Virus record (IMG/VR): IMGVR_UViG_3300015615_000629
Coordinates: 192,001-256,000 of that record
DNA from: a virus
Taxonomy: Duplodnaviria > Heunggongvirae > Uroviricota > Caudoviricetes
Reading direction: 5' to 3' (one strand)
Length of the DNA stretch: 64,000 nt
Below the pieces are notes generated by a model that ran no database searches, had not been told where the DNA came from, and worked only from the letters and a program-made list of their open reading frames with translations. Shown here one piece after another: positions 1 through 10,431 of the stretch. Position numbers and translations under genes: made by a program. How positions within the stretch are numbered: position 1 is the stretch's first letter; each line of letters begins with the position of its first letter.

Positions 1-60
1 ACAACTATAGCCGCTACCACAGCAGTAATCACAAACATCATGATATTCATCATTACTTTG

Positions 61-1032
61 TTATTCATCATTATCTCCCCATTTTAGTGGAATTTCATCT
101 GATTTGTTTTCGCCAGACCAACCAGCTCGTATCATAACAGAACTAGAAACCAATAATGTGGGAGCCAACATAATTAAGACATAAGGAGCGAAAACAGGGG
201 ATTCGTAACAAGACTTCGGATACTTTCCAGCAGCACTCATAGGAGTATAAGTTCTTGGGTTTAACATTACAGGAAAATTGTAGTAATCAACTTTACCAGA
301 CCTAACAGGCTTAGGACTTATGATGTAATCCACATCCCAGTCTAGGGGCAGGCCAACAGCTTCGGCATCAATTAAAACTTCATAATTTAATTTTGGCAGC
401 CGCTCCAAAATCATCCCGTCTATCTCCAAAGCAAGCGAATCTGCGTAAATTTCCTTCATGTAATCGAAATCTGCCTTATTGAAGAATTTAGTTTGATACA
501 TTAATGTTTTAGCACACACCGCCTCAGATTCACTAATCACCCCATCTTTCTTAGTAAAAATCAAACTAGCTGGTCCCAACATTGGCTGAACGGATATCAT
601 CCTTCTAAATTTTACCCTAAGCCAAACTTCCTTTGTAAGCCATAACATATTCTCTTTAGATACTTTGTTTTCGCAAAAACTAACATCCATTAATTCAGAA
701 CAGTTATTAAGCAATACAGAAAGACACCTTCTATCATCCAAGTTAATCGCATTTTCTAAATAACATGAATTTTTCCAATCATTTATAACTTTCTGTAAAG
801 GTGTTGAATCGTCAACCCATTGCTCAACCACCTTGGGCGGATTCTTGTCTAAATACCCTCTAACCTGTTCCAGTGTATATCTTCTATGTCCACCATCTGT
901 TCGTTCTGCCTTGAATTTACCTTGTACGTCCCAATCTCTTAACGTATTTTCACACACTTCCAGCAATTTCGCTGTCTCGCTAATACTTAACATTCGGTCA
1001 CACATTCTACTACTTCCTTTCTTTTTAGCCAT
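61..1032 (-). CDS. MerR-type HTH fused to a degenerate T4 gp23-like major capsid domain
   Basis: N-term LSISETAKLLEVCENTLRDWD..GGHRRY (MerR HTH); collinear gp23-like motifs ISVQPMLGPASLIF, EAVCAKT, LALEIDGMIL, FAPYV. Confidence 0.7.
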   Translation of the reverse strand: MAKKKGSSRMCDRMLSISETAKLLEVCENTLRDWDVQGKFKAERTDGGHRRYTLEQVRGYLDKNPPKVVEQWVDDSTPLQKVINDWKNSCYLENAINLDDRRCLSVLLNNCSELMDVSFCENKVSKENMLWLTKEVWLRVKFRRMISVQPMLGPASLIFTKKDGVISESEAVCAKTLMYQTKFFNKADFDYMKEIYADSLALEIDGMILERLPKLNYEVLIDAEAVGLPLDWDVDYIISPKPVRSGKVDYYNFPVMLNPRTYTPMSAAGKYPKSCYESPVFAPYVLIMLAPTLLVSSSVMIRAGWSGENKSDEIPLKWGDNDE

Positions 1033-1064
1033 AACTAGTAGATTCTCCTCTATAGTAGTAGAAT

Positions 1065-1859
1065 TTAATTAAAAATTGACAAAAATTCTTGATTTGCGGT
1101 TCTTTTTCTTTCGCCGGAAATGCCACCCTTGGCACGCCCAGAGCTAATCCGAACATAATCATTAGATAACACAACACCTTCAGACACGTAACATTTAGGT
1201 TTTAAACCTTTTACATATTCTTTTACATCAAAACTGTGTCCGTAGAACGTCGTTCCTGCATAAGGCGGATCAATGTATACATCCCCCTGTAAAGGCTCTA
1301 TATCGTTTATATCACAATAGTAGCCATGTATTCCATACATCTTCTCGCATATTAAATACATTCGCTCTAATAGCGTCTCAGGCATCGGCATCATGGGATT
1401 AACCGGCGACCGTCTATTAGAGGTCTCAGTAGGCAACCAATAGTTTCTAAAACTAGTGTTTTGCCACCGATTGTCCTTTATCCAGATTGCCTTACTACCG
1501 AAGCTAGCCGCTTGGAGAATCAAATAAACATAAGGTGTATCGATGTCAGCAGGTTGTTTGGATAAGCCTTCTGCATAAGATTTTATCTTAGAACGATCCT
1601 TGGGGATATCTTCAATTAGAGTCCTGAATCTGGCGATATCGAAAGTGCCTTCTCCAACCATTTTCCAGACAAGACCCCAAGGGCCTTTATCAAGCATATG
1701 AATCTGGTTTGTATTATGGCCGCGATTTAAGAGGGCAATAGAAACCGCACCGCAGCCACAACAAAGGTCGTAGAAATCGCCTTGTGGATTAATTATCCAA
1801 AGGATTTGATCAGCAATACGTTGTTTGCCACCTTGATAAGCCGTTGGGGGTTGAATCAT
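1065..1859 (-). CDS. Dam-like (D12 class) DNA adenine methyltransferase
   Basis: YQGGK N-term motif, DLCCGCGAV SAM-binding loop, DPPY. Confidence 0.8.
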   Translation of the reverse strand: MIQPPTAYQGGKQRIADQILWIINPQGDFYDLCCGCGAVSIALLNRGHNTNQIHMLDKGPWGLVWKMVGEGTFDIARFRTLIEDIPKDRSKIKSYAEGLSKQPADIDTPYVYLILQAASFGSKAIWIKDNRWQNTSFRNYWLPTETSNRRSPVNPMMPMPETLLERMYLICEKMYGIHGYYCDINDIEPLQGDVYIDPPYAGTTFYGHSFDVKEYVKGLKPKCYVSEGVVLSNDYVRISSGRAKGGISGERKRTANQEFLSIFN

Positions 1860-2164
1860 ATCGTTTTAACAAAGTTGGCTAAATGTCCACAAGTAAATTC
1901 AATAATCTTATCATGATCTTCCTGATCGTGAAATTCAAATGAACCGAAGGCACCTTCACCTTTTAAAACATTAGAGTAACTATCTAGTTCTAAGATTATT
2001 CTTGTTTTATAGTAAACTTTCAAATTGAAGGGACTCACCCCAAACTGAAACAACCCCTTATCGATTTCTACAACAACAGAAATTAGTTTCTTGCATAATT
2101 TATCAAAAGATATTCCCCTAGCAGTTCTTTTGCTAATCTCAAATTTAAGACTTTCAATACTCAT
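1856..2164 (-). CDS. hypothetical protein
   Basis: 102 aa ORF coupled to both neighbours. Confidence 0.6.
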   Translation of the reverse strand: MSIESLKFEISKRTARGISFDKLCKKLISVVVEIDKGLFQFGVSPFNLKVYYKTRIILELDSYSNVLKGEGAFGSFEFHDQEDHDKIIEFTCGHLANFVKTI

Positions 2165-2349
2165 TATTCCCTCTCCACAGAAATTACGTCTTTATCCGCT
2201 TTCAAATCCTTAATCTTCTCGATCTCTATCAATCCGAGAAGGCTTTTAATTCCAATACCTGTTACTTCCAAACCTAACGCCTCCATACGGTCAACATATG
2301 GGATAGTCGAGAAACATTTACTCTTTACGCAAACGGCAACTTTTTTCAT
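2164..2349 (-). CDS. small hypothetical protein
   Basis: 61 aa ORF with stop/start overlaps on both sides. Confidence 0.55.
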   Translation of the reverse strand: MKKVAVCVKSKCFSTIPYVDRMEALGLEVTGIGIKSLLGLIEIEKIKDLKADKDVISVERE

Positions 2350-3152
2350 CTAAACTCCGCTACAATTTCCTTAACACTCCCCCTTTTATCGCCATCGCCA
2401 CTTATACAACGTCTGCAATCCACGCTATACGTTTTGGCTCCATAACCAGAATACAATTCCCTAGAATACCAATTATAACAATTTGATATAAATACCGTGG
2501 CTCCCCTTTCCGCCGCCAGTTTAGCCTCCTCTGCTAATTTAATATGTTCCATTAACCCAAAACCGCCAGCGGAATAAGTGGTAAAACTTGAAGTTTCTGA
2601 CAAGGGGAAATAAGGAGGGTCACAATATACCAAATCCCCTTCTTTCACAAGAGCAAAAATTTCTTTAAAATCTAAATTATGGATTTCAAAGTTCTGTATT
2701 TTATCCAAAACCCCTAAAAGTTCGTTTCTAGGGAAATATGGAACTTTATACGCTCCAAATGACGTATTAAAGCCACCTTTGGAGTTATACCTACAAAGCC
2801 CATTGAAACAATGTCTATTCAAATAAATAAACATTATTGCTTTGTCGTCTGAGTCTACTGTCCTATTGAATTGTTTTTTAAATTCTAGAAAAGCCGGTTT
2901 GTTGTTATTTTCTGGGACAAAAAGACTTTCGCAAGCATTGATAAAGCCTTCTTTGTATGTCTTTAGGGCTTTCCAGACAGCGATTAGGTCGGAATTAACG
3001 TCATTAACGATAAATTCTGGATAATCTACATTTAAAGCGACAGCACCAGCACCCAAAAAGGGTTCGATGTATCTTTTAGCTTCTGGAAATTTAGATTTTA
3101 GGAAAGGAATAAGACGATATTTACCGCCTGCCCATTTGAGAAACGGTTTCAT
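2346..3152 (-). CDS. dam: DNA adenine methylase, Dam family
   Basis: PFLKWAGGK, EPFLGAGAV, YLNRHCFNGLCRYN, DPPY. Confidence 0.92.
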   Translation of the reverse strand: MKPFLKWAGGKYRLIPFLKSKFPEAKRYIEPFLGAGAVALNVDYPEFIVNDVNSDLIAVWKALKTYKEGFINACESLFVPENNNKPAFLEFKKQFNRTVDSDDKAIMFIYLNRHCFNGLCRYNSKGGFNTSFGAYKVPYFPRNELLGVLDKIQNFEIHNLDFKEIFALVKEGDLVYCDPPYFPLSETSSFTTYSAGGFGLMEHIKLAEEAKLAAERGATVFISNCYNWYSRELYSGYGAKTYSVDCRRCISGDGDKRGSVKEIVAEFR

Positions 3153-3673: not shown

Positions 3674-4303
3674 TTAATCCTCTTCTAGAACCCGATAGGC
3701 TTCGGCTAAATATTCATTTTCAAACTTGTATTTGCCATCGAATATCTTTTTTCTATCGTAATGTAATCTTAAAACTAAGGTGTAGCTTTTGCCAGCTTCT
3801 AAATGTAGCCAATAAACTTCGGCCGATTGGCCAGGATCGGATGCCATTACGGAAAAGAAAGCAGGATCACCTTCTGGCCCCCTTACAACATCAACAACTT
3901 GCCAATCTTCCAATGGTAAATTAATCTTAAATTTAACAATATCTAAATAACGAACATTTCCAAAATCTTCCCATTTGACAGGAATGTATAATAAACAACC
4001 TTTATCTCCTGCATGTACACCAGCACGTTCCGTAGTGTTCTTAAAGACATAAGGTTCAACTCTCTCTACTTTGAGTTTAATTTTCTCTAAAACTAAAGTT
4101 TTCTTAACAACGCCAATTTTAGGATGTCTTCTGTTGTAAATGGCTCTGACGACCAAAGCACCGCCAGCAGCGGATAAACTTGATACGACACTTACTAAAA
4201 CCAACAAAAGAACAACTTTAACCCAATAACTTTCTGTAATCTTCGCCACTGTATTCTCCAAATGTTTTATCTTCGTCCCCAAAACAATGATATACCAGTT
4301 CAT
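3674..4303 (-). CDS. membrane-anchored protein, paralog of 3121-3672 (true start probably downstream of 4303)
   Basis: hydrophobic segment VVLLLVLVSVVSSL; blocks shared with neighbour; track start overlaps SpoVR. Confidence 0.6.
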   Translation of the reverse strand: MNWYIIVLGTKIKHLENTVAKITESYWVKVVLLLVLVSVVSSLSAAGGALVVRAIYNRRHPKIGVVKKTLVLEKIKLKVERVEPYVFKNTTERAGVHAGDKGCLLYIPVKWEDFGNVRYLDIVKFKINLPLEDWQVVDVVRGPEGDPAFFSVMASDPGQSAEVYWLHLEAGKSYTLVLRLHYDRKKIFDGKYKFENEYLAEAYRVLEED

Positions 4304-5816
4304 CCCCGTTGGAATCCTTGGTAACTAAAAGTACATTTTTCTTCCAAATATGATTTATTGCTTGCATAACCGGCCTGACATAAGGAATATGTAAAGTTCT
4401 GCCATCGTATATGTGTTCAAGCATTAAGAATCCTTGCCCACGATGATTAGGATCCACTAGTCTGATTTCAGGTAAGCCGCCATTTAAATGTTTCTTTATA
4501 AGTTTAGCCTTAATCTTTTTGGGATCATCTTCTTCAATACGATACTCGCCATTAGGATATTTTTTCCACTCAAAGAATTCATTCTTTCTACAGAATTCCG
4601 GTGTAAAGTATTCCAAAAGCAAAGTGAAATCATTATTGTCCCGACATACTTCAAACACCTTATCCTTGCCTAATCCTAAATTGAGATTCCATTCTTCCTT
4701 AACCTTCATGTCTTTACATTCATCGTATTCTGGGCCGAATTTACCCTTGTTCCAACGATCTTCTATATCCGTTAACAAACTGAATCCCAAATTATAAGGA
4801 TTCATTGAATATTTTCCGCCCATAACTGCAACATGATTCATTGCATAATCAACAATTCCACAATCATCACTCGCTTGCCCCAAGCCACATAAACCCCGTT
4901 TACACATGATGTTAAAGTCTGTGTACGAGGCGAAACCTTCATTTATTGTCTTTGTCTGTCTTTGTGGAGCAAAATAGATAGATTCTTCCCAAATCATGGA
5001 AATAATATCTTGTTGCCACGGCTTCAAAGGTGCATGATCCCTTAAAAATCCTAAAACATCCTTAGTAGGTTCTTTAAATAAGCCTATTTCCTTCTCGACT
5101 TCCCTTTTGTAAATAGCCTTTTGTTGCTTTTTAGTCCATTCCTTTGGATTAATGTAATCATCCATGTAGTCGTGCCCCTCTCGAATCTTTAATCTAGAGG
5201 GATGTTCGACTTCCCTTTTATCAAAGATTTGATGAGGAACATATTTCTTTTCTTCCCAAGCTTTAGCCGGATCAATAAGAGTTTCCAATCTTAGGACATA
5301 ATCTAAAAATTGAGTTACACGTTCTTTTCCCCAACGGGACATGTATTTGCGAATTCTAGAGCCATGATTGGCAAATTCGTTTAACATGTTACGGTTTGTT
5401 TGAGAAAAGAATACATTATTCTTAAAGAAATGATTATGCCCTTGAGCGTGGACAATAACTGTAACGTGGTCAACGAGGGGGTTGGAATCGAGACAATATA
5501 TATGGGAAGGATTGGTATTCACAACCATTTCGAAGATTTTCCCGCCGCCATGCAAGAAGCGATGTTGCATCCCTTCGTATTCCATTCCCCACTTCCAATG
5601 CGGGTATCTTACGGGAAAGCCGTTATAAGAGGCAATTTCACTTATCTCATCATAAGTGAGCATGTGAATGCAAGTTGGAAAGAAATCCAACCCAAAGTCC
5701 GTACACTCCTTAAATATTCTCGGAATTATCTTCTTTAATTCCGGTGGTAACGGCAAACCTGGAGTAGTAGCATCGCCCATTAGAATGGGACTGCCATCAA
5801 TATAACGCTGACTCAT
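4218..5816 (-). CDS. spoVR: SpoVR/YcgB family protein
   Basis: PVRYPHWKWGMEY, IFEMVVN, HAQGHNHFFKNN, QTKTINEGFAS, NPYNLG. Confidence 0.93.
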   Translation of the reverse strand: MSQRYIDGSPILMGDATTPGLPLPPELKKIIPRIFKECTDFGLDFFPTCIHMLTYDEISEIASYNGFPVRYPHWKWGMEYEGMQHRFLHGGGKIFEMVVNTNPSHIYCLDSNPLVDHVTVIVHAQGHNHFFKNNVFFSQTNRNMLNEFANHGSRIRKYMSRWGKERVTQFLDYVLRLETLIDPAKAWEEKKYVPHQIFDKREVEHPSRLKIREGHDYMDDYINPKEWTKKQQKAIYKREVEKEIGLFKEPTKDVLGFLRDHAPLKPWQQDIISMIWEESIYFAPQRQTKTINEGFASYTDFNIMCKRGLCGLGQASDDCGIVDYAMNHVAVMGGKYSMNPYNLGFSLLTDIEDRWNKGKFGPEYDECKDMKVKEEWNLNLGLGKDKVFEVCRDNNDFTLLLEYFTPEFCRKNEFFEWKKYPNGEYRIEEDDPKKIKAKLIKKHLNGGLPEIRLVDPNHRGQGFLMLEHIYDGRTLHIPYVRPVMQAINHIWKKNVLLVTKDSNGDELVYHCFGDEDKTFGEYSGEDYRKLLG

Positions 5817-6988
5817 TTAGGCTGTTTTCCTAACAATTCCCTAATTGCTTTCTTAATCTGATTTCCACGTTCATCATCTGACAAACTTGGCGTATTAAAC
5901 CAACCCGTGTTAGTGCCAGTAATGGCAGTAGTCTTTAGGTTGGGCATTTTCAGATGGTTATCAATATACTCTTTAACCCCATCGTTAGAATAGCTCAAAA
6001 TCTGGCTAATTCCAACAAAATTAACCAACCTTGGAGCGAGGCTTTCCTTAATTGTTTCAACTAAAACTGGATTATCCGACTCCATGTTTTCACCATCCGT
6101 GAAATAAAACACATAAACATTCCATTTGTTTAAAGGAAATCTAGCCTCAAATTGATTGGAAATAAACTTAAATGCCGAAGAACATAAAGTACCGCCACCT
6201 GAACGGTATCGATAAAAAGTATGTTCATCTACTTCTTTTGCGACTACATCATGCCAAACATAACAACGTTCTACTCTGTCGTAAAACTGTCTAATCCAGA
6301 GGTCTATCCACCAGCACATATCACTAATAATATCACAACGATATTCATCAACTGAACCGGAGCCATCCCTTGCAAAGAAGATAACAGCATTGCTGGAGGG
6401 TAATTTTATCTCTTTATATTGCCTATATCGAAAATCTGAATTAATTGGAGAAACAAGTCGGACTTTTTCCTTCATCCCAGGAACTTTATGTAAAATATCA
6501 AATTCCTGGCTTGCTATTGTGCGTTTGTACGCCTGAAGCATGGTTCGCTTAGGATGAATTAGCGATCTGGGGCCGGTTAGAGAGATATTGTTATATTTGA
6601 TATCAATGTCCTCGAAAACTTCCTGTGGCTTCGGCTGAAGTGGAGGAAGTTCTAAATCTTCTCCAAGCAAATGAAGGATATCATCTAAATCAACACTGAT
6701 AAGGATTCCTTCGCCTTCGCCCTCACCGGCTTTATGTCCCTTGCCTTGACCTTGTTCATCTTTGCCGATTACATCGCCTTTTTTACCAGGGCCACGACCA
6801 ACACCAGAATTCCCAGAACCATGAACTAGGATGGGTTGGTCAATATTTGGAACAGATATGACAAGTTTCTTATCGCCACGCATTCCAAATATTTTGCCGT
6901 TATTGATGAGACTTTTGAGTTCTTTGCGGGTTTTGCCCGAATAAACATCCTTAAAGTCTTTGCGATCACTTTGAATCCGTTTAGTCAT
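5813..6988 (-). CDS. yeaH: YeaH/YhbH (DUF444) vWA-like protein
   Basis: Gly-rich linker, DLELPPLQPK, SNAVIFFARDGSGS (MIDAS), SGGGTLCSSA, FTDGEN. Confidence 0.9.
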   Translation of the reverse strand: MTKRIQSDRKDFKDVYSGKTRKELKSLINNGKIFGMRGDKKLVISVPNIDQPILVHGSGNSGVGRGPGKKGDVIGKDEQGQGKGHKAGEGEGEGILISVDLDDILHLLGEDLELPPLQPKPQEVFEDIDIKYNNISLTGPRSLIHPKRTMLQAYKRTIASQEFDILHKVPGMKEKVRLVSPINSDFRYRQYKEIKLPSSNAVIFFARDGSGSVDEYRCDIISDMCWWIDLWIRQFYDRVERCYVWHDVVAKEVDEHTFYRYRSGGGTLCSSAFKFISNQFEARFPLNKWNVYVFYFTDGENMESDNPVLVETIKESLAPRLVNFVGISQILSYSNDGVKEYIDNHLKMPNLKTTAITGTNTGWFNTPSLSDDERGNQIKKAIRELLGKQPK

Positions 6989-7407
6989 TCTTTATCCATA
7001 TTTTTAAAGTAAAGGAAAACTCCTTCGTTTTCATTGATTTCCAAACGGTTAATTCCAATATTTTTACCAATTTTAGACATTTGTTGGCAAATTAAATCAA
7101 CCATTTCCTCGAACCACTTTGGAGCGTTTTGTTTATGTCTAATTCCTAACATAAAACCTTTAACATCATCTGGTTCGTTGATATATGAAATATTGTTACT
7201 AAAGGCACCCAAAGTTACAAAAACCATCCTAGCCACCATTGTACAACGTAGTGGGTTATACTTCGAACAATAACTATTATCCAATACCCGTGCTAAATCA
7301 AGTTTGCTACAAGCCTCACTAAGCCACCCATTTTCACTCCAACGAGCGAGCAATTCCTCGTTGTCTAAATCATCTTCATTAACCCATCGGGTACTGTATA
7401 ATTTCAT
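6985..7407 (-). CDS. hypothetical protein, tandem paralog of 7404-7832
   Basis: shared DDLxNEE, KLDL, RCT, NISYI, GKNIGxNRLEINE. Confidence 0.7.
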   Translation of the reverse strand: MKLYSTRWVNEDDLDNEELLARWSENGWLSEACSKLDLARVLDNSYCSKYNPLRCTMVARMVFVTLGAFSNNISYINEPDDVKGFMLGIRHKQNAPKWFEEMVDLICQQMSKIGKNIGINRLEINENEGVFLYFKNMDKE

Positions 7408-7832
7408 TCTTGATCCAGGTTTTTATAATGCAAGATAATTGATTGGTGCTCGTTTATTTCTAACCGATTTAAACCAATGTTTTTACCCATATCGGTTATA
7501 TATTGGCAAATTGAATCAGACATTATGTCGAGCCAACTTCCGTAATCTTTACAGTTTAACAAACCACCAAAACTAACATATTCAGTGGCTGCCTCAATAT
7601 ATGAAATATTTAATTTAGATTGCAATCTTTTAAAGACCAATGCCGCCAAAACCGTACAGCGAACAGGGTCGTCATTCGAAGCAGCACATTTTTCCAAAAA
7701 CAAAGACAAATCAAGTTTATCAGACGCATTAAACATAGCCCAATAGGCCATTACTTCTTCGTTATATAAATCGTCTGAATCGGACCAATGGTTTTTAACT
7801 TTCTCATTTACTTTCTTATTTTTATACTGCAT
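7404..7832 (-). CDS. hypothetical protein, tandem paralog of 6985-7407
   Basis: same shared blocks; ATGA coupling. Confidence 0.7.
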   Translation of the reverse strand: MQYKNKKVNEKVKNHWSDSDDLYNEEVMAYWAMFNASDKLDLSLFLEKCAASNDDPVRCTVLAALVFKRLQSKLNISYIEAATEYVSFGGLLNCKDYGSWLDIMSDSICQYITDMGKNIGLNRLEINEHQSIILHYKNLDQE

Positions 7833-8160
7833 ACTTTTCCCTAAGTTTTTCCAACTGTTTGAGTTCCCTTTCCTTCTTTTTAGCAGCAGCGTTTTTGATC
7901 CGATTCTTTTCGCGTTCTTCGTACTTTTTCAATCTCTCTTCATCTTTTTTGGCTGTTTCACGACATTTTTGAAGGATTTCATTAAATTCTTCTTTTTCGA
8001 CTTTTTCAATTAAACGATAATTACGTGTGTCTAAATATCTTCGAAGAATTTGATAATCTTTTTCATCTACTTCGAAAAATCCAGTAATTGAATCTAGAAG
8101 AGAAGAACTATAATTATCGTCGCAGAATTCCCAAACTTTAACGATAGCCACACTTCTCAT
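7822..8160 (-). CDS. hypothetical coiled-coil protein
   Basis: 112 aa, K/E-rich C-terminus. Confidence 0.6.
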   Translation of the reverse strand: MRSVAIVKVWEFCDDNYSSSLLDSITGFFEVDEKDYQILRRYLDTRNYRLIEKVEKEEFNEILQKCRETAKKDEERLKKYEEREKNRIKNAAAKKKERELKQLEKLREKYAV

Positions 8161-8163
8161 GTT

Positions 8164-8352
8164 TTATTCCTCTTGATCCAGCCAATAATTATAATAATTA
8201 TGGAATGGCAAGCATCCAGATTTGCGACCTTCGTCGGCTTTTTTGTACAACGAACATTGCATCGCAATCCATTCCTGAGTCTGCCAAGGTTGCGGTCGCA
8301 ATCGAGCTACCGCTAACTTTAAATCTACCCATTTACTCCATTCGTCTTCCAT
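8164..8352 (-). CDS. small hypothetical protein
   Basis: 62 aa ORF filling the gap after prkA, SD-like GAGG upstream. Confidence 0.55.
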   Translation of the reverse strand: MEDEWSKWVDLKLAVARLRPQPWQTQEWIAMQCSLYKKADEGRKSGCLPFHNYYNYWLDQEE

Positions 8353-8355
8353 TCA

Positions 8356-10431
8356 TTATTCCTCTTCGTCACCCCGAGCAAAGATTCCACCAACATAATC
8401 CAATACGTCTGTGGCACTTTGTTCATTATAGCCATACTGACGGATTAAACGCTGTTTAATAGCATCAATTTTCTCTTGGATTTCAGGATCGACCACAGCA
8501 GCACCACTTACATTTAAAGCAGACAACTTAATGTGATCTTTTGTATCCTCGAACAATTTCTTCTCAAGAGCCGTGGCAAGTCGAATATTCGAATTATAAG
8601 TAAATTTCTTGCCAGAATGAGCCAAGGAACCCATAAAAGAAGCAATTGATTCGCGGAATTGACGAACACCTTGTTCGGGAACATCAATCTTTTCTTCAAT
8701 CGAACGCATAAATTTCTCGTCCGCCGATTGCAATTTTCCAGTAATCGGGTGAACAATCTTACGCTCTTCGATATAAGCCATCAAATTATCAATGTAGTTT
8801 GAACACAGACGAACAATGGCATTTTCATCGCTAACAAGGGCTTTACGAACTTCATTCTTGAGAATTTCATCCAATTCTCGAATTGCCAATTCGACACAGG
8901 TTTTGTATCTGGCAATATCTTCCTTGTTCGAGAACAACGGATGGTCTTCGAGTCCTTCCTTGATCTCATTCATTACCATGAACATGTTAACGTAATCGAA
9001 CTTCTTGCTCAAGCAATTTGAAATTTTATCTTGAACATAACGGCATGAAACTCCACCACTCATACCTTCATTCGGGTATTTGTCTTTGAGTTCTTTTACC
9101 CCATCTTCCGTCCAACCCGGCAAGGATCGTCCATCGTAAAGTTTAGCCTTTTCAATAAGGGTAATACGATTTTCTTTATCGTCTTGCAATCTAGTCAAAA
9201 CCGCCCACAAAGCAGCGATTTCAAGGGTGTGAGGAGCAATGTGTTGACGTACTTTCCCTGGGCCGTAGTAGTGTTCGAGAATCTTAAGTTCACCACTCCA
9301 ACGGGTCAAATACGGAACATCAATTTTAATGGTGCGATCACGCAAGGCTTCCATTGCCGGATTATTTCGCATCTTCTGAAATTCGTGTTCGTTCGTATGT
9401 GACAAAAGCACAGTATCAATAGAAATCTGTGGGAATTTCTTAGGCTTAATTTGTTGCTCTTGGGAGGCTCCCAGAAGGTCATAAAGAAATTCAGGCTCTA
9501 ATTTCAGCACTTCGATAAACTCGGTCATGCCTCTGTTGCCAGCACAGAATTCCCCGTCAAAATTAAATGCACGGGGATCACTATCACTACCAAAGTAGGC
9601 CAACTGACGATAATTAATATCGCCGGTCAATTCGGTAGCATCCTGATTCTTTTCATCTTTTGGCTGGAATGTACCAATACCAATTCGATCTGCTTCTGCG
9701 TAAACCTGTCGGACAACTCGAATATGTTTGTCAATCACCTCCTTCCAGTTGCCGTTATACCTCAAGAGCAATTCTCTCATGAATCGTTTGCAGCGTGGAT
9801 TTAATTCACCCTCGCAGCGTAATTTGTATAAGTTTTTACGACCTTCTTCTGAAGCCCCTTCGTGTAAAATTTCACTTAATTCTTGTAAAAAGACATTTCT
9901 AATGTCCTGTGGAATCAGCTTAAGAGGATCGTCCCGCATAGCACACATATCTTCAGCATGGGTGTAAATCCCATCATCACCAGTCGGTAGATCAACCCAT
10001 TTATACGTGTACCATGCTCCTTGATCTTCACGAGAATACTTTTCCATACCTCGCTTTAACGCCCTACACAGACTCGACTTAGAAGAACCTACCGGTCCTA
10101 AAAGCAATAGTACACGACGTTCTGTGCCGTAACCACCAGCACCACCCTTAAAGACTTTTACAAGTTCATTAAGCATTTCTTCATGGTCGAAGATTGGGCA
10201 TTCGGCGTCATCGAAAAAATTGTAATGAATATAAGTTTTACGGTATCTTTCAAAAGTTTCAGTTCCTTTGGAAAGAATCATGTCATACATTCGCTGCCAA
10301 GCATTTCTTGCTAGGCGAGGGTTTGCCCGAACACGCTCGATATATTCGGAAAAACTTAATTCTTCGTTAAGAGCAATAAATTCTTTTTGATTAAAAAGAC
10401 TAGAAAGGCGATCAAAGTCAGTATTTGACAT
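8356..10431 (-). CDS. prkA: PrkA/YeaG family AAA+ ATPase / serine kinase
   Basis: LLLLGPVGSSKS Walker A, GIGTFQPKDEKNQD, SDSDPRAFNFDGEFCAGNRG, EALRDR. Confidence 0.93.
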   Translation of the reverse strand: MSNTDFDRLSSLFNQKEFIALNEELSFSEYIERVRANPRLARNAWQRMYDMILSKGTETFERYRKTYIHYNFFDDAECPIFDHEEMLNELVKVFKGGAGGYGTERRVLLLLGPVGSSKSSLCRALKRGMEKYSREDQGAWYTYKWVDLPTGDDGIYTHAEDMCAMRDDPLKLIPQDIRNVFLQELSEILHEGASEEGRKNLYKLRCEGELNPRCKRFMRELLLRYNGNWKEVIDKHIRVVRQVYAEADRIGIGTFQPKDEKNQDATELTGDINYRQLAYFGSDSDPRAFNFDGEFCAGNRGMTEFIEVLKLEPEFLYDLLGASQEQQIKPKKFPQISIDTVLLSHTNEHEFQKMRNNPAMEALRDRTIKIDVPYLTRWSGELKILEHYYGPGKVRQHIAPHTLEIAALWAVLTRLQDDKENRITLIEKAKLYDGRSLPGWTEDGVKELKDKYPNEGMSGGVSCRYVQDKISNCLSKKFDYVNMFMVMNEIKEGLEDHPLFSNKEDIARYKTCVELAIRELDEILKNEVRKALVSDENAIVRLCSNYIDNLMAYIEERKIVHPITGKLQSADEKFMRSIEEKIDVPEQGVRQFRESIASFMGSLAHSGKKFTYNSNIRLATALEKKLFEDTKDHIKLSALNVSGAAVVDPEIQEKIDAIKQRLIRQYGYNEQSATDVLDYVGGIFARGDEEE

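What the first reader, a model, noticed from the sequence alone, without database searches (positions are those of the whole stretch)
61..1032. MerR-type DNA-binding HTH fused to a shrunken major-capsid-like domain
Seen: after a clear MerR-type HTH come collinear motifs (W...YLE...LSVLLNN, ISVQPMLGPASLIF, EAVCAKT, LALEIDGMIL, YIISP, FAPYV). Known: these resemble conserved T4 gp23 blocks (VQPM.GP.GLIF, V.AK.R.LK, EI.REI, F.CPYV). Inference: a capsid paralog carrying a DNA-binding head might tether DNA in the shell, couple assembly to transcription, or act as a decoy for capsid-sensing defences.
Basis: partly seen in the sequence, partly recalled or inferred. Interest (0 to 1): 0.72.

Follow-up and report, generated by a model that had tools for sequence, protein, structure and literature searches.

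The report
Phage capsid fold turned DNA-binding autoregulator
Giant bacteriophages have fused a DNA-binding head to a cut-down copy of their own shell protein, and conserved repeats over the gene's promoter suggest that it controls its own production rather than building the virus shell.

Summary
Confirmed. The minus-strand ORF (323 aa) of a complete 572-kb phage joins a BldC/IS607-type winged HTH (not a true MerR) to a miniaturised gp23-derived HK97 fold. Profile match to the major-capsid family: 98.6%, collinear. Model: TM 0.74 to gp23, Z 10.7 to T4 gp24. It is no artefact: the family has 83 clusters at E<=1e-30, several on 477-622 kb contigs. The capsid part has lost the I-domain, most of the E-loop and P-loop, half the A-domain and the maturation site.

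New here: a 12-bp direct repeat, about 21 bp apart, lies over the gene's own promoter. It ranks first in 12 of 13 homologous loci (leave-one-out). In this genome the two best-scoring promoters, of 817, belong to this gene and a second HTH-gp23 fusion. There is no late promoter or conserved neighbour, and two complete related phages lack the gene.

Best reading: a dispensable, self-repressing protein whose capsid fold is a non-structural interaction module, probably dosed against a partner. Binding and partner are inferred. The fusion probably arose more than once. No description found in the literature; the scan noted only this locus and a gp23 fragment elsewhere.

The parts
61..1032 (-). ORF, 323 aa from Met1; probably 314 aa from Met10 (start codon 1003-1005)
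   Evidence: homologues start at the Met10 column; the operator sits at -60/-40 from Met10, against about -61/-41 in the family
835..999 (-). Winged HTH, residues 12-66, BldC/Xis/IS607-TnpA type; no MerR coiled coil
   Evidence: Pfam; NCBIfam HTH_BldC E 4.5e-8, below cut-off; BldC 6AMK Z 8.0, rmsd 1.3, 52 aligned, 35% identity; 68% mean identity to P0001 across the family
682..801 (-). Retained N-terminal prodomain-like helices of gp23 (residues 78-117); maturation-site motif not conserved
   Evidence: best-conserved block against the own MCP (97.4%, 85 columns); aligns with the T4 gp23 N-terminus; an NE or [LI]xE site in only 9 of 91 rows
115..681 (-). Miniaturised HK97 core (residues 118-306): short E-loop hairpin, P-domain strands, spine helix, reduced A-domain; lacks the I-domain, part of the P-loop, the long A-domain helix and the last strand
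   Evidence: 35% mean identity to P0001 across the family
1054..1065 (-). Operator-like repeat, copy 1; overlaps a sigma70 -10-like hexamer at 1052-1057
   Evidence: PWM trained without this genome, 14.4 bits; this pair ranks first genome-wide
1034..1045 (-). Operator-like repeat, copy 2, 20 bp downstream of copy 1
   Evidence: 12.0 bits
1003..1014 (+). Inverted copy of the repeat over the Met10 start and its ribosome-binding site; 11-bp perfect complement of copy 1
   Evidence: partly a Shine-Dalgarno look-alike, so weaker evidence
1077..1082 (-). -35-like hexamer (5 of 6), 19 bp before the -10-like box; seen in this genome only
   Evidence: not conserved in homologues

Best explanation
A dispensable accessory protein of 500-600 kb gp23-type phages. 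It was made by fusing a BldC/IS607-type winged HTH to an I-domain-less copy of the major capsid gene. The HTH binds helically phased direct repeats over the gene's own sigma70-type promoter and represses it. The capsid-derived part no longer builds the shell. It serves as a protein-interaction module: it oligomerises the HTH heads on sites two turns apart, and/or binds a partner that normally recognises capsid precursor (own MCP, scaffold, chaperonin or a host capsid sensor). The feedback loop keeps the protein's amount matched to that partner. SHOWN: domain identity and fold, the lost elements, family conservation, the conserved phased repeat confined to these promoters, absence of the late box, patchy distribution. 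INFERRED: DNA binding, repression rather than activation, oligomerisation, and any partner.
For: (1) The repeat pair is spaced 20-22 bp in 10 of 12 training loci (10 and 42 in the others). In leave-one-out scans, with close kin also left out, it is the top pair of the locus and lies 51-130 bp upstream of the gene in 12 of 13 loci; the miss has spacing 19. (2) In G000, with this genome excluded from training, the top two of 817 upstream regions are this gene (35.7 bits) and the second HTH-gp23 fusion (30.6); the next scores 20.8. 0 of 100 column-permuted matrices reach the top score. (3) Fusions with a different recognition helix carry different repeats at the same place (L254, L272, L273, L274). 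The one HTH-less member examined has none (L257). (4) The HTH is twice as conserved as the capsid part, 68% against 35%. (5) The closest heads are IS607 TnpA domains (99 of 231 HTH-only loci). These, like BldC, bind phased direct repeats (PMC6188088, PMC5859096). (6) The phage's late box is missing upstream here and in 12 of 13 homologues; a -10-like hexamer is present in 12 of 13. (7) The I-domain and its linkers, which lock T4 capsomers (PMC9546572), are deleted. (8) The family is absent from LR756511 (595 kb, MCP 70% identical) and from G002 (527 kb). (9) No conserved neighbours; often monocistronic.
Against: No binding, expression or partner data. The repeat core resembles an anti-Shine-Dalgarno sequence and can pair with the RBS, so part of its conservation may be RNA structure (folding z -3.2 to +0.4). 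The second-ranked promoter score includes such a look-alike and (30.6) lies within the null range (maximum 32.9). The 13 loci are about 10 independent lineages. Most homologues lack a -35 consensus, so activation cannot be excluded. T=1 encapsulins assemble with equally short E-loops, so the loss of these elements does not prove loss of assembly. A regulator whose only target is itself needs a second function, and that is not identified.
Confidence: 0.6

Rival explanations
1. Self-dosed capsid decoy or sponge: the capsid part soaks up or blocks a host defence sensor or factor that recognises gp23 (Lit/EF-Tu- or CapRel-like), and the HTH merely limits its own expression. This is one specific version of the best explanation.
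For: G000 holds at least four more gp23-derived ORFs outside the head module, including N-terminus-only and A-domain-containing pieces; one has a sigma70-like promoter. Patchy presence suits an arms-race gene. The block most like the MCP ends in the region that is the T4 Gol peptide (own knowledge; alignment).
Against: The domain is only about 22% identical to the own MCP, yet keeps family-specific invariant residues that the MCP lacks (F189, K193, Y196, W131, W137); that is not what tracking an MCP epitope would give. A faithful mimic would tend to trigger rather than block such sensors. The host is unknown.
Confidence: 0.2
2. Minor head protein (vertex-like, or a DNA tether): it co-assembles into the prohead with the HTH inside and grips a genome site during packaging or ejection.
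For: The best solved-structure match is the vertex protein gp24. The HTH sits in front of the prodomain, which probably faces the scaffold (PMC9546572). Terminase-small-subunit HTH profiles ring weakly (phrog_57, E 0.015). One homologue lies 1.7 kb behind the MCP gene (L084).
Against: No late box. It lies 277 kb from the MCP in G000 and has other neighbours in every lineage. The I-domain is lost and the E-loop cut short. Two complete relatives lack it. Its only conserved DNA site is its own promoter.
Confidence: 0.1
3. The upstream repeats are an RNA element: a hairpin hides the RBS on read-through transcripts, as in T4 late genes with an internal promoter (own knowledge). The HTH then binds elsewhere or without sequence preference.
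For: Perfect 9-12 bp complements between a repeat and the RBS region in the window, L088 and L255, with changes on both sides between L088 and L255.
Against: It does not explain two direct copies held at integer helical turns, nor repeats that change with the recognition helix. The pairing partner differs between loci and folding z-scores are mostly weak. There is no late box inside the stem.
Confidence: 0.07
4. Dominant-negative assembly poison aimed at co-infecting related phages, kept in check by autorepression.
For: It keeps the prodomain and spine helix but lacks the I-domain contacts, as a chain terminator would; tight self-limitation would be expected.
Against: Strong divergence from any MCP; no direct evidence.
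Confidence: 0.05

Closest known systems
BldC-family winged HTH regulators (Streptomyces BldC, PDB 6AMK/6AMA; PMC5859096)
   Same: Same fold without the MerR dimer helix (Z 8.0, rmsd 1.3, 35% identity); BldC binds AT-led direct repeats in helical phase.
   Different: BldC is a 68-residue stand-alone protein with a large regulon. Here the head is fused to an HK97 fold, the repeats are mostly two turns apart, and only own-gene promoters carry them.
IS607-family TnpA serine transposase, N-terminal DNA-binding domain (PMC6188088)
   Same: Closest sequence relatives of the head (99 of 231 HTH-only loci); an N-terminal wHTH on a short linker; phased direct motifs plus an imperfect inverted repeat near its own gene.
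   Different: There is no serine-recombinase domain here; it is replaced by a capsid-derived domain. No adjacent tnpB was noted in the annotated loci.
T4 gp23 major capsid protein / gp24 vertex protein
   Same: HK97 fold, collinear homology, prodomain-like N-terminus; gp24 is a precedent for a diverged gp23 paralogue.
   Different: About 240 residues against 427-521; no I-domain; no conserved maturation site; outside the head gene module; no late promoter; dispensable; carries an HTH.
Encapsulins (T=1 and Pyrococcus; 2E0Z, 9I8E, 7K5W)
   Same: A compact HK97 fold with a short E-loop (Z 8.1-8.6); an HK97 fold put to non-virion use.
   Different: Sequence ancestry is gp23; phage-encoded; no cargo gene alongside; DNA-binding head; shell formation not shown.
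Classical MerR regulators
   Same: Related wHTH; in this genome alone, a 19-bp spacer between -35-like and -10-like boxes.
   Different: No antiparallel coiled coil; direct rather than palindromic sites; the 19-bp geometry is not conserved in homologues.

Membership tests
Classical MerR regulator | N-terminal MerR-type wHTH | tested here: met
   PF13411, PF00376; structures
Classical MerR regulator | Long dimerisation coiled-coil helix after the wHTH | tested here: not met
   the model shows a loop after helix 54-63, then capsid helices; NCBIfam MerR equivalogs far below cut-off
Classical MerR regulator | Palindromic operator inside a 19-bp -35/-10 spacer | tested here: not met
   the conserved element is a direct repeat; the 19-bp spacer appears in the window only
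BldC family | wHTH without coiled coil, structurally like BldC | tested here: met
   6AMK Z 8.0, rmsd 1.3, 52 aligned
BldC family | Reaches the NF033787 cut-off; small stand-alone protein | tested here: not met
   32.8 bits against a cut-off of 77; 323 aa, two domains
BldC family | Head-to-tail cooperative binding to direct repeats | not testable with these tools
   phased repeats are present; binding needs an experiment
IS607 TnpA | Serine-recombinase catalytic domain after the wHTH | tested here: not met
   NF033518 matches residues 19-67 only, 23 bits against 110; the C-terminus is an HK97 fold
gp23-type major capsid protein | HK97 fold homologous to gp23 | tested here: met
gp23-type major capsid protein | I-domain on long linkers; full A-domain | tested here: not met
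   about 150 MCP residues are replaced by a short turn; the A-domain helix and last strand are lost
gp23-type major capsid protein | Gene in the portal-protease-scaffold module and expressed late | tested here: not met
   the real MCP gene lies at C1:469152-470594, 277 kb away; no late box
gp24-type vertex protein | Essential paralogue present in all phages of the clade | tested here: not met
   absent from complete LR756511 and G002, which share the MCP clade; a search miss of a very diverged copy cannot be excluded
gp24-type vertex protein | Pentamers at virion vertices | not testable with these tools
   needs virion proteomics or cryo-EM
Encapsulin | Self-assembly into a closed shell with cargo | not testable with these tools
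   fold similarity only, Z about 8; no cargo gene among neighbours

The most novel reading that the evidence does not exclude
The HK97 capsid fold has been recruited, more than once in huge phages, as the sensing or oligomerising domain of a DNA-binding regulator. It co-assembles with, or is titrated by, capsid precursor or a capsid-recognising host factor, and so converts head-assembly or immune status into a transcriptional output. This would be a capsid-fold transcription factor with no described precedent.
Probability: 0.35. Interest if true: 0.87.

Novelty: new variant of a known kind. Interest (0 to 1): 0.7.

Why it matters
To my knowledge the HK97 fold is known only as a shell builder (virions, gene-transfer agents, encapsulins, satellite capsids). 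This is a conserved family, probably evolved repeatedly, in which the fold is stripped of shell contacts and wired to an operator-binding head. It would be a case of a capsid protein turned into a regulatory or counter-defence part. The operator is predicted to the base, so the central claim can be tested with one gel shift and one reporter. Finding the partner could reveal a feedback on head assembly or a defence against capsid-sensing immunity. It also draws attention to a large unannotated pool of shrunken gp23 paralogues in huge phages (443 hits at E<=0.001).

Tried and rejected
- Single-sequence searches of the C-domain against Pfam, PHROGs and PDB sequences found no capsid hit. The ESM Atlas look-up was uninformative, its own model having pLDDT 0.33.
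- Homo-tetramer prediction of residues 70-308 gave no verdict (score 0.35, mark 0.42) and is not used as evidence.
- Sequencing runs: no RNA holder listed. The two DNA runs did not cover the gene, so read-level confirmation and habitat are not available.
- No longer fused forms were found (a weak test). No match among the 50,697 GenBank phage records. No full-length match among GTDB genomes; the 80 best hits were HTH only (pattern-limited).
- A wider regulon was sought and not found: no other upstream region exceeds the permuted-matrix range.
- The idea that the upstream motif is a general phage promoter was rejected: the phage's own enriched motifs are different.
- The MerR-like 19-bp promoter was rejected as a family feature.
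- The careful tree did not finish; only quick trees were used, with long branches.
- Nine paper searches found no description of this architecture (among them). The library lacks most subscription papers.
- The host could not be determined.
- Searches were input slips or time-outs.

Full report
**Observation.** The finding is an intact 323-codon ORF on the minus strand at window 61-1032. The window belongs to a 572,167-base virus record with direct terminal repeats, rated complete. Its true head module (portal-sized gene, protease, scaffold, 480-aa gp23-type MCP; PF07068 E 9e-85) lies about 277 kb away. Homologues begin at the column of Met10, so the protein is probably 314 aa.

**The head.** Residues 12-66 hit MerR_1, HTH_17 and MerR. 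The model shows no coiled coil after them. The best structural relatives are BldC (6AMK, Z 8.0, rmsd 1.3 A, 35% identity) and excisionases. NCBIfam ranks HTH_BldC first, but below its cut-off. Among 231 loci that matched by the head alone, 99 continue into the serine-recombinase motif of IS607 TnpA. So the head is of the BldC/Xis/IS607 type, whose members bind helically phased direct repeats (PMC5859096, PMC6188088). It is not a classical MerR.

**The body.** The single sequence has no capsid hit, but the family does. 9 of 27 members ring Pfam Gp23 and 11 of 27 the PHROG major head protein. The profile finds the phage's own MCP at E 9e-12. Profile-profile alignment to MCPs is collinear over 231 columns (98.6%, E 9e-16), and to HTH-less 270-340-aa intermediates at 99.9%. 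AlphaFold2 folds the domain confidently (pLDDT 88.8, pTM 0.87). The top solved match is T4 gp24 (Z 10.7, rmsd 3.5, 183 residues), followed by encapsulins and a full list of HK97 capsids. Predicted gp23 models match at TM 0.74 over 237 residues. Retained are the N-terminal prodomain-like helices, a short E-loop hairpin, the P-domain strands, the spine helix and a reduced A-domain. Lost are about 150 residues of I-domain and linkers, part of the P-loop, the long A-domain helix and the last strand. In T4 the I-domain and its linkers lock subunits within and between capsomers, and the N-terminal region probably contacts the scaffold and is cut off (PMC9546572). The position matching the T4 cleavage site (after E65; own knowledge) keeps a suitable motif in only 9 of 91 family rows.

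**The family.** There are 37 further full-length homologues at 34-47% identity. A profile search finds 83 clusters at E<=1e-30 and 443 at E<=0.001. 76 of 91 aligned members carry the head. Several lie on contigs of 477, 585 and 622 kb. None was found in GTDB genomes or GenBank phage records. Neighbours differ between lineages, and the gene is often followed by a convergent gene. Two complete phages with the same MCP clade lack it: LR756511 (595 kb, MCP 70% identical) and G002 (527 kb, which has an HTH-less shrunken paralogue). It is therefore accessory.

**Repeated origin.** The family of this gene is one clade (SH-aLRT 99), with HTH-less members inside it; some of these may be truncated calls. 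Other HTH-gp23 fusions fall elsewhere. An AU test rejects one clade for all fusions (p 0.007; quick tree, no mixture model, long branches, so provisional). P0144 is a head fused to an I-domain-less gp23 still 42-44% identical to this phage's MCP. P0040 is a head fused to the A-domain alone. G000 itself has a second HTH-gp23 fusion 6 kb from the MCP, and at least four HTH-less gp23 pieces. Several fusions, or replacement of the capsid part, are likely.

All 13 homologous loci and the window carry a 12-bp direct repeat, consensus AAAYCTACYAMT, at about -61 and -41 from the start. The spacing is 20-22 bp in 10 of 12 training loci, and 10 and 42 bp in the others. With each locus and its close kin left out of training, the best pair in the whole locus is this upstream pair in 12 of 13 cases; the miss has spacing 19. 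A matrix trained without G000 ranks the pair at window 1034-1065 first in 572 kb on both strands (26.4 bits). The promoter of the second fusion ranks second (23.3) and the next scores 15.7. Column-permuted matrices never reach the top score (0 of 100 in two tests). The second promoter alone stays within the null range, and its score includes a Shine-Dalgarno look-alike. Fusions with other recognition helices have other repeats at the same place (L254, L272, L273, L274); in L274 they overlap a canonical -35/17/-10 promoter and the start codon. The one HTH-less member examined has no repeat (L257). The downstream repeat overlaps a -10-like hexamer in most loci. The phage's late box (TA-A/T/G-ATA, lead from earlier notes) is absent here and in 12 of 13 homologues. 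The head is twice as conserved as the body (68% against 35%), as expected if it reads a fixed site.

**Caveat.** The repeat core resembles an anti-Shine-Dalgarno sequence. An inverted copy often covers the ribosome-binding site, with perfect 9-12 bp complements in three loci. An RBS-hiding hairpin may therefore contribute. Folding z-scores are mostly weak, however, and a hairpin would not need two direct copies in helical phase. The 13 loci represent about 10 independent lineages.

**Mechanism.** The simplest account is negative autoregulation: the heads bind the phased repeats over the gene's own promoter (inferred). No other promoter in the genome carries the element convincingly, so the output of the loop is the protein itself. 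Its useful activity must then lie in the capsid-derived part, which is conserved and has its own invariant residues. That part most likely binds something that binds capsid precursor, or itself. Titration by that partner would relieve repression and match dose to demand (inferred, weaker). Whether the partner is the phage's own head machinery or a host sensor is open.

**Comparison and verdict.** It works like a BldC/IS607-type self-binding regulator and is built from a gp23 paralogue, but it fails a defining feature of each known family tested (MerR, BldC, IS607 TnpA, gp23, gp24). Paper searches found no description of the architecture. The scan had noted only this locus and unrelated gp23 fragments. 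I class it as a new variant of a known kind (a one-component wHTH autoregulator with an unprecedented capsid-fold body), interest 0.70. If the capsid fold proves to be the sensor, it would be categorically new.

Noticed in passing
G000:C1:191019-191687 (-), about 370 bp downstream of the gene's stop, just outside the window (L258): 222-aa HTH-less shrunken gp23-like ORF behind a sigma70-like promoter with a perfect -35 box, so probably early rather than structural.
   Followed up: partly
G000:C1:462350-463345 (-) (L259:4351-5346): Second HTH-gp23 fusion (331 aa), 6 kb from the MCP gene, with a different recognition helix; its promoter ranks second for the operator matrix, mostly in the opposite orientation.
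   Followed up: partly
G000:C1:296072-296662 (-), 476469-476933 (-), 466213-466442 (-): Further gp23 pieces: an A-domain-containing ORF closely resembling the own MCP behind a twin-arginine-like leader; an N-terminus-only ORF of 154 aa; a weak spine-helix-like ORF (E 0.018).
   Followed up: partly
G000:C1:1-68400 and 555000-572167: The motif CTGTACC lies upstream of 61 genes, nearly all listed ones in the two terminal regions, very often exactly 16 nt before an ATG that lacks a Shine-Dalgarno sequence. Candidate phage-specific early promoter for leaderless mRNAs, or a cassette boundary.
   Followed up: partly
window 4218-10431 (-): Three large genes that look like a PrkA / YhbH / SpoVR cluster (691, 391 and 532 aa), recognised from the translations only; not scanned.
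   Followed up: no
window 1065-3152 (-): Two D12-class adenine methyltransferase genes just upstream of the finding, one intact-looking (E 2e-60) and one divergent.
   Followed up: no
genome-wide, e.g. window 13483, 18661, 22059, 24157, 26069, 28687: About 30 ORFs begin with a short leader resembling T4 capsid-targeting sequences, many directly behind the late box (already noted by earlier readers).
   Followed up: partly
L084:9532-10152 (-) (P0040): 206-aa protein: HTH fused to the gp23 A-domain alone, 5 kb from the MCP of a 477-kb phage that also carries the full fusion.
   Followed up: partly
L272:873-2843 (+): Two HTH-gp23 fusions in tandem, each preceded by a long perfect inverted repeat that contains the motif core.
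   Followed up: partly
P0001 residue 27 (window 952-954): A cysteine in the turn before the recognition helix is kept in 64 of 76 heads; a possible redox or metal input, untested.
   Followed up: no
G000:C1:335917-336690 (-) (L261): A third protein with a related HTH, followed by an unrelated helical body, directly behind a late box.
   Followed up: no
window 1-60 (-): A possible 24-codon hydrophobic mini-ORF starts just after the stop codon and runs off the window edge.
   Followed up: no
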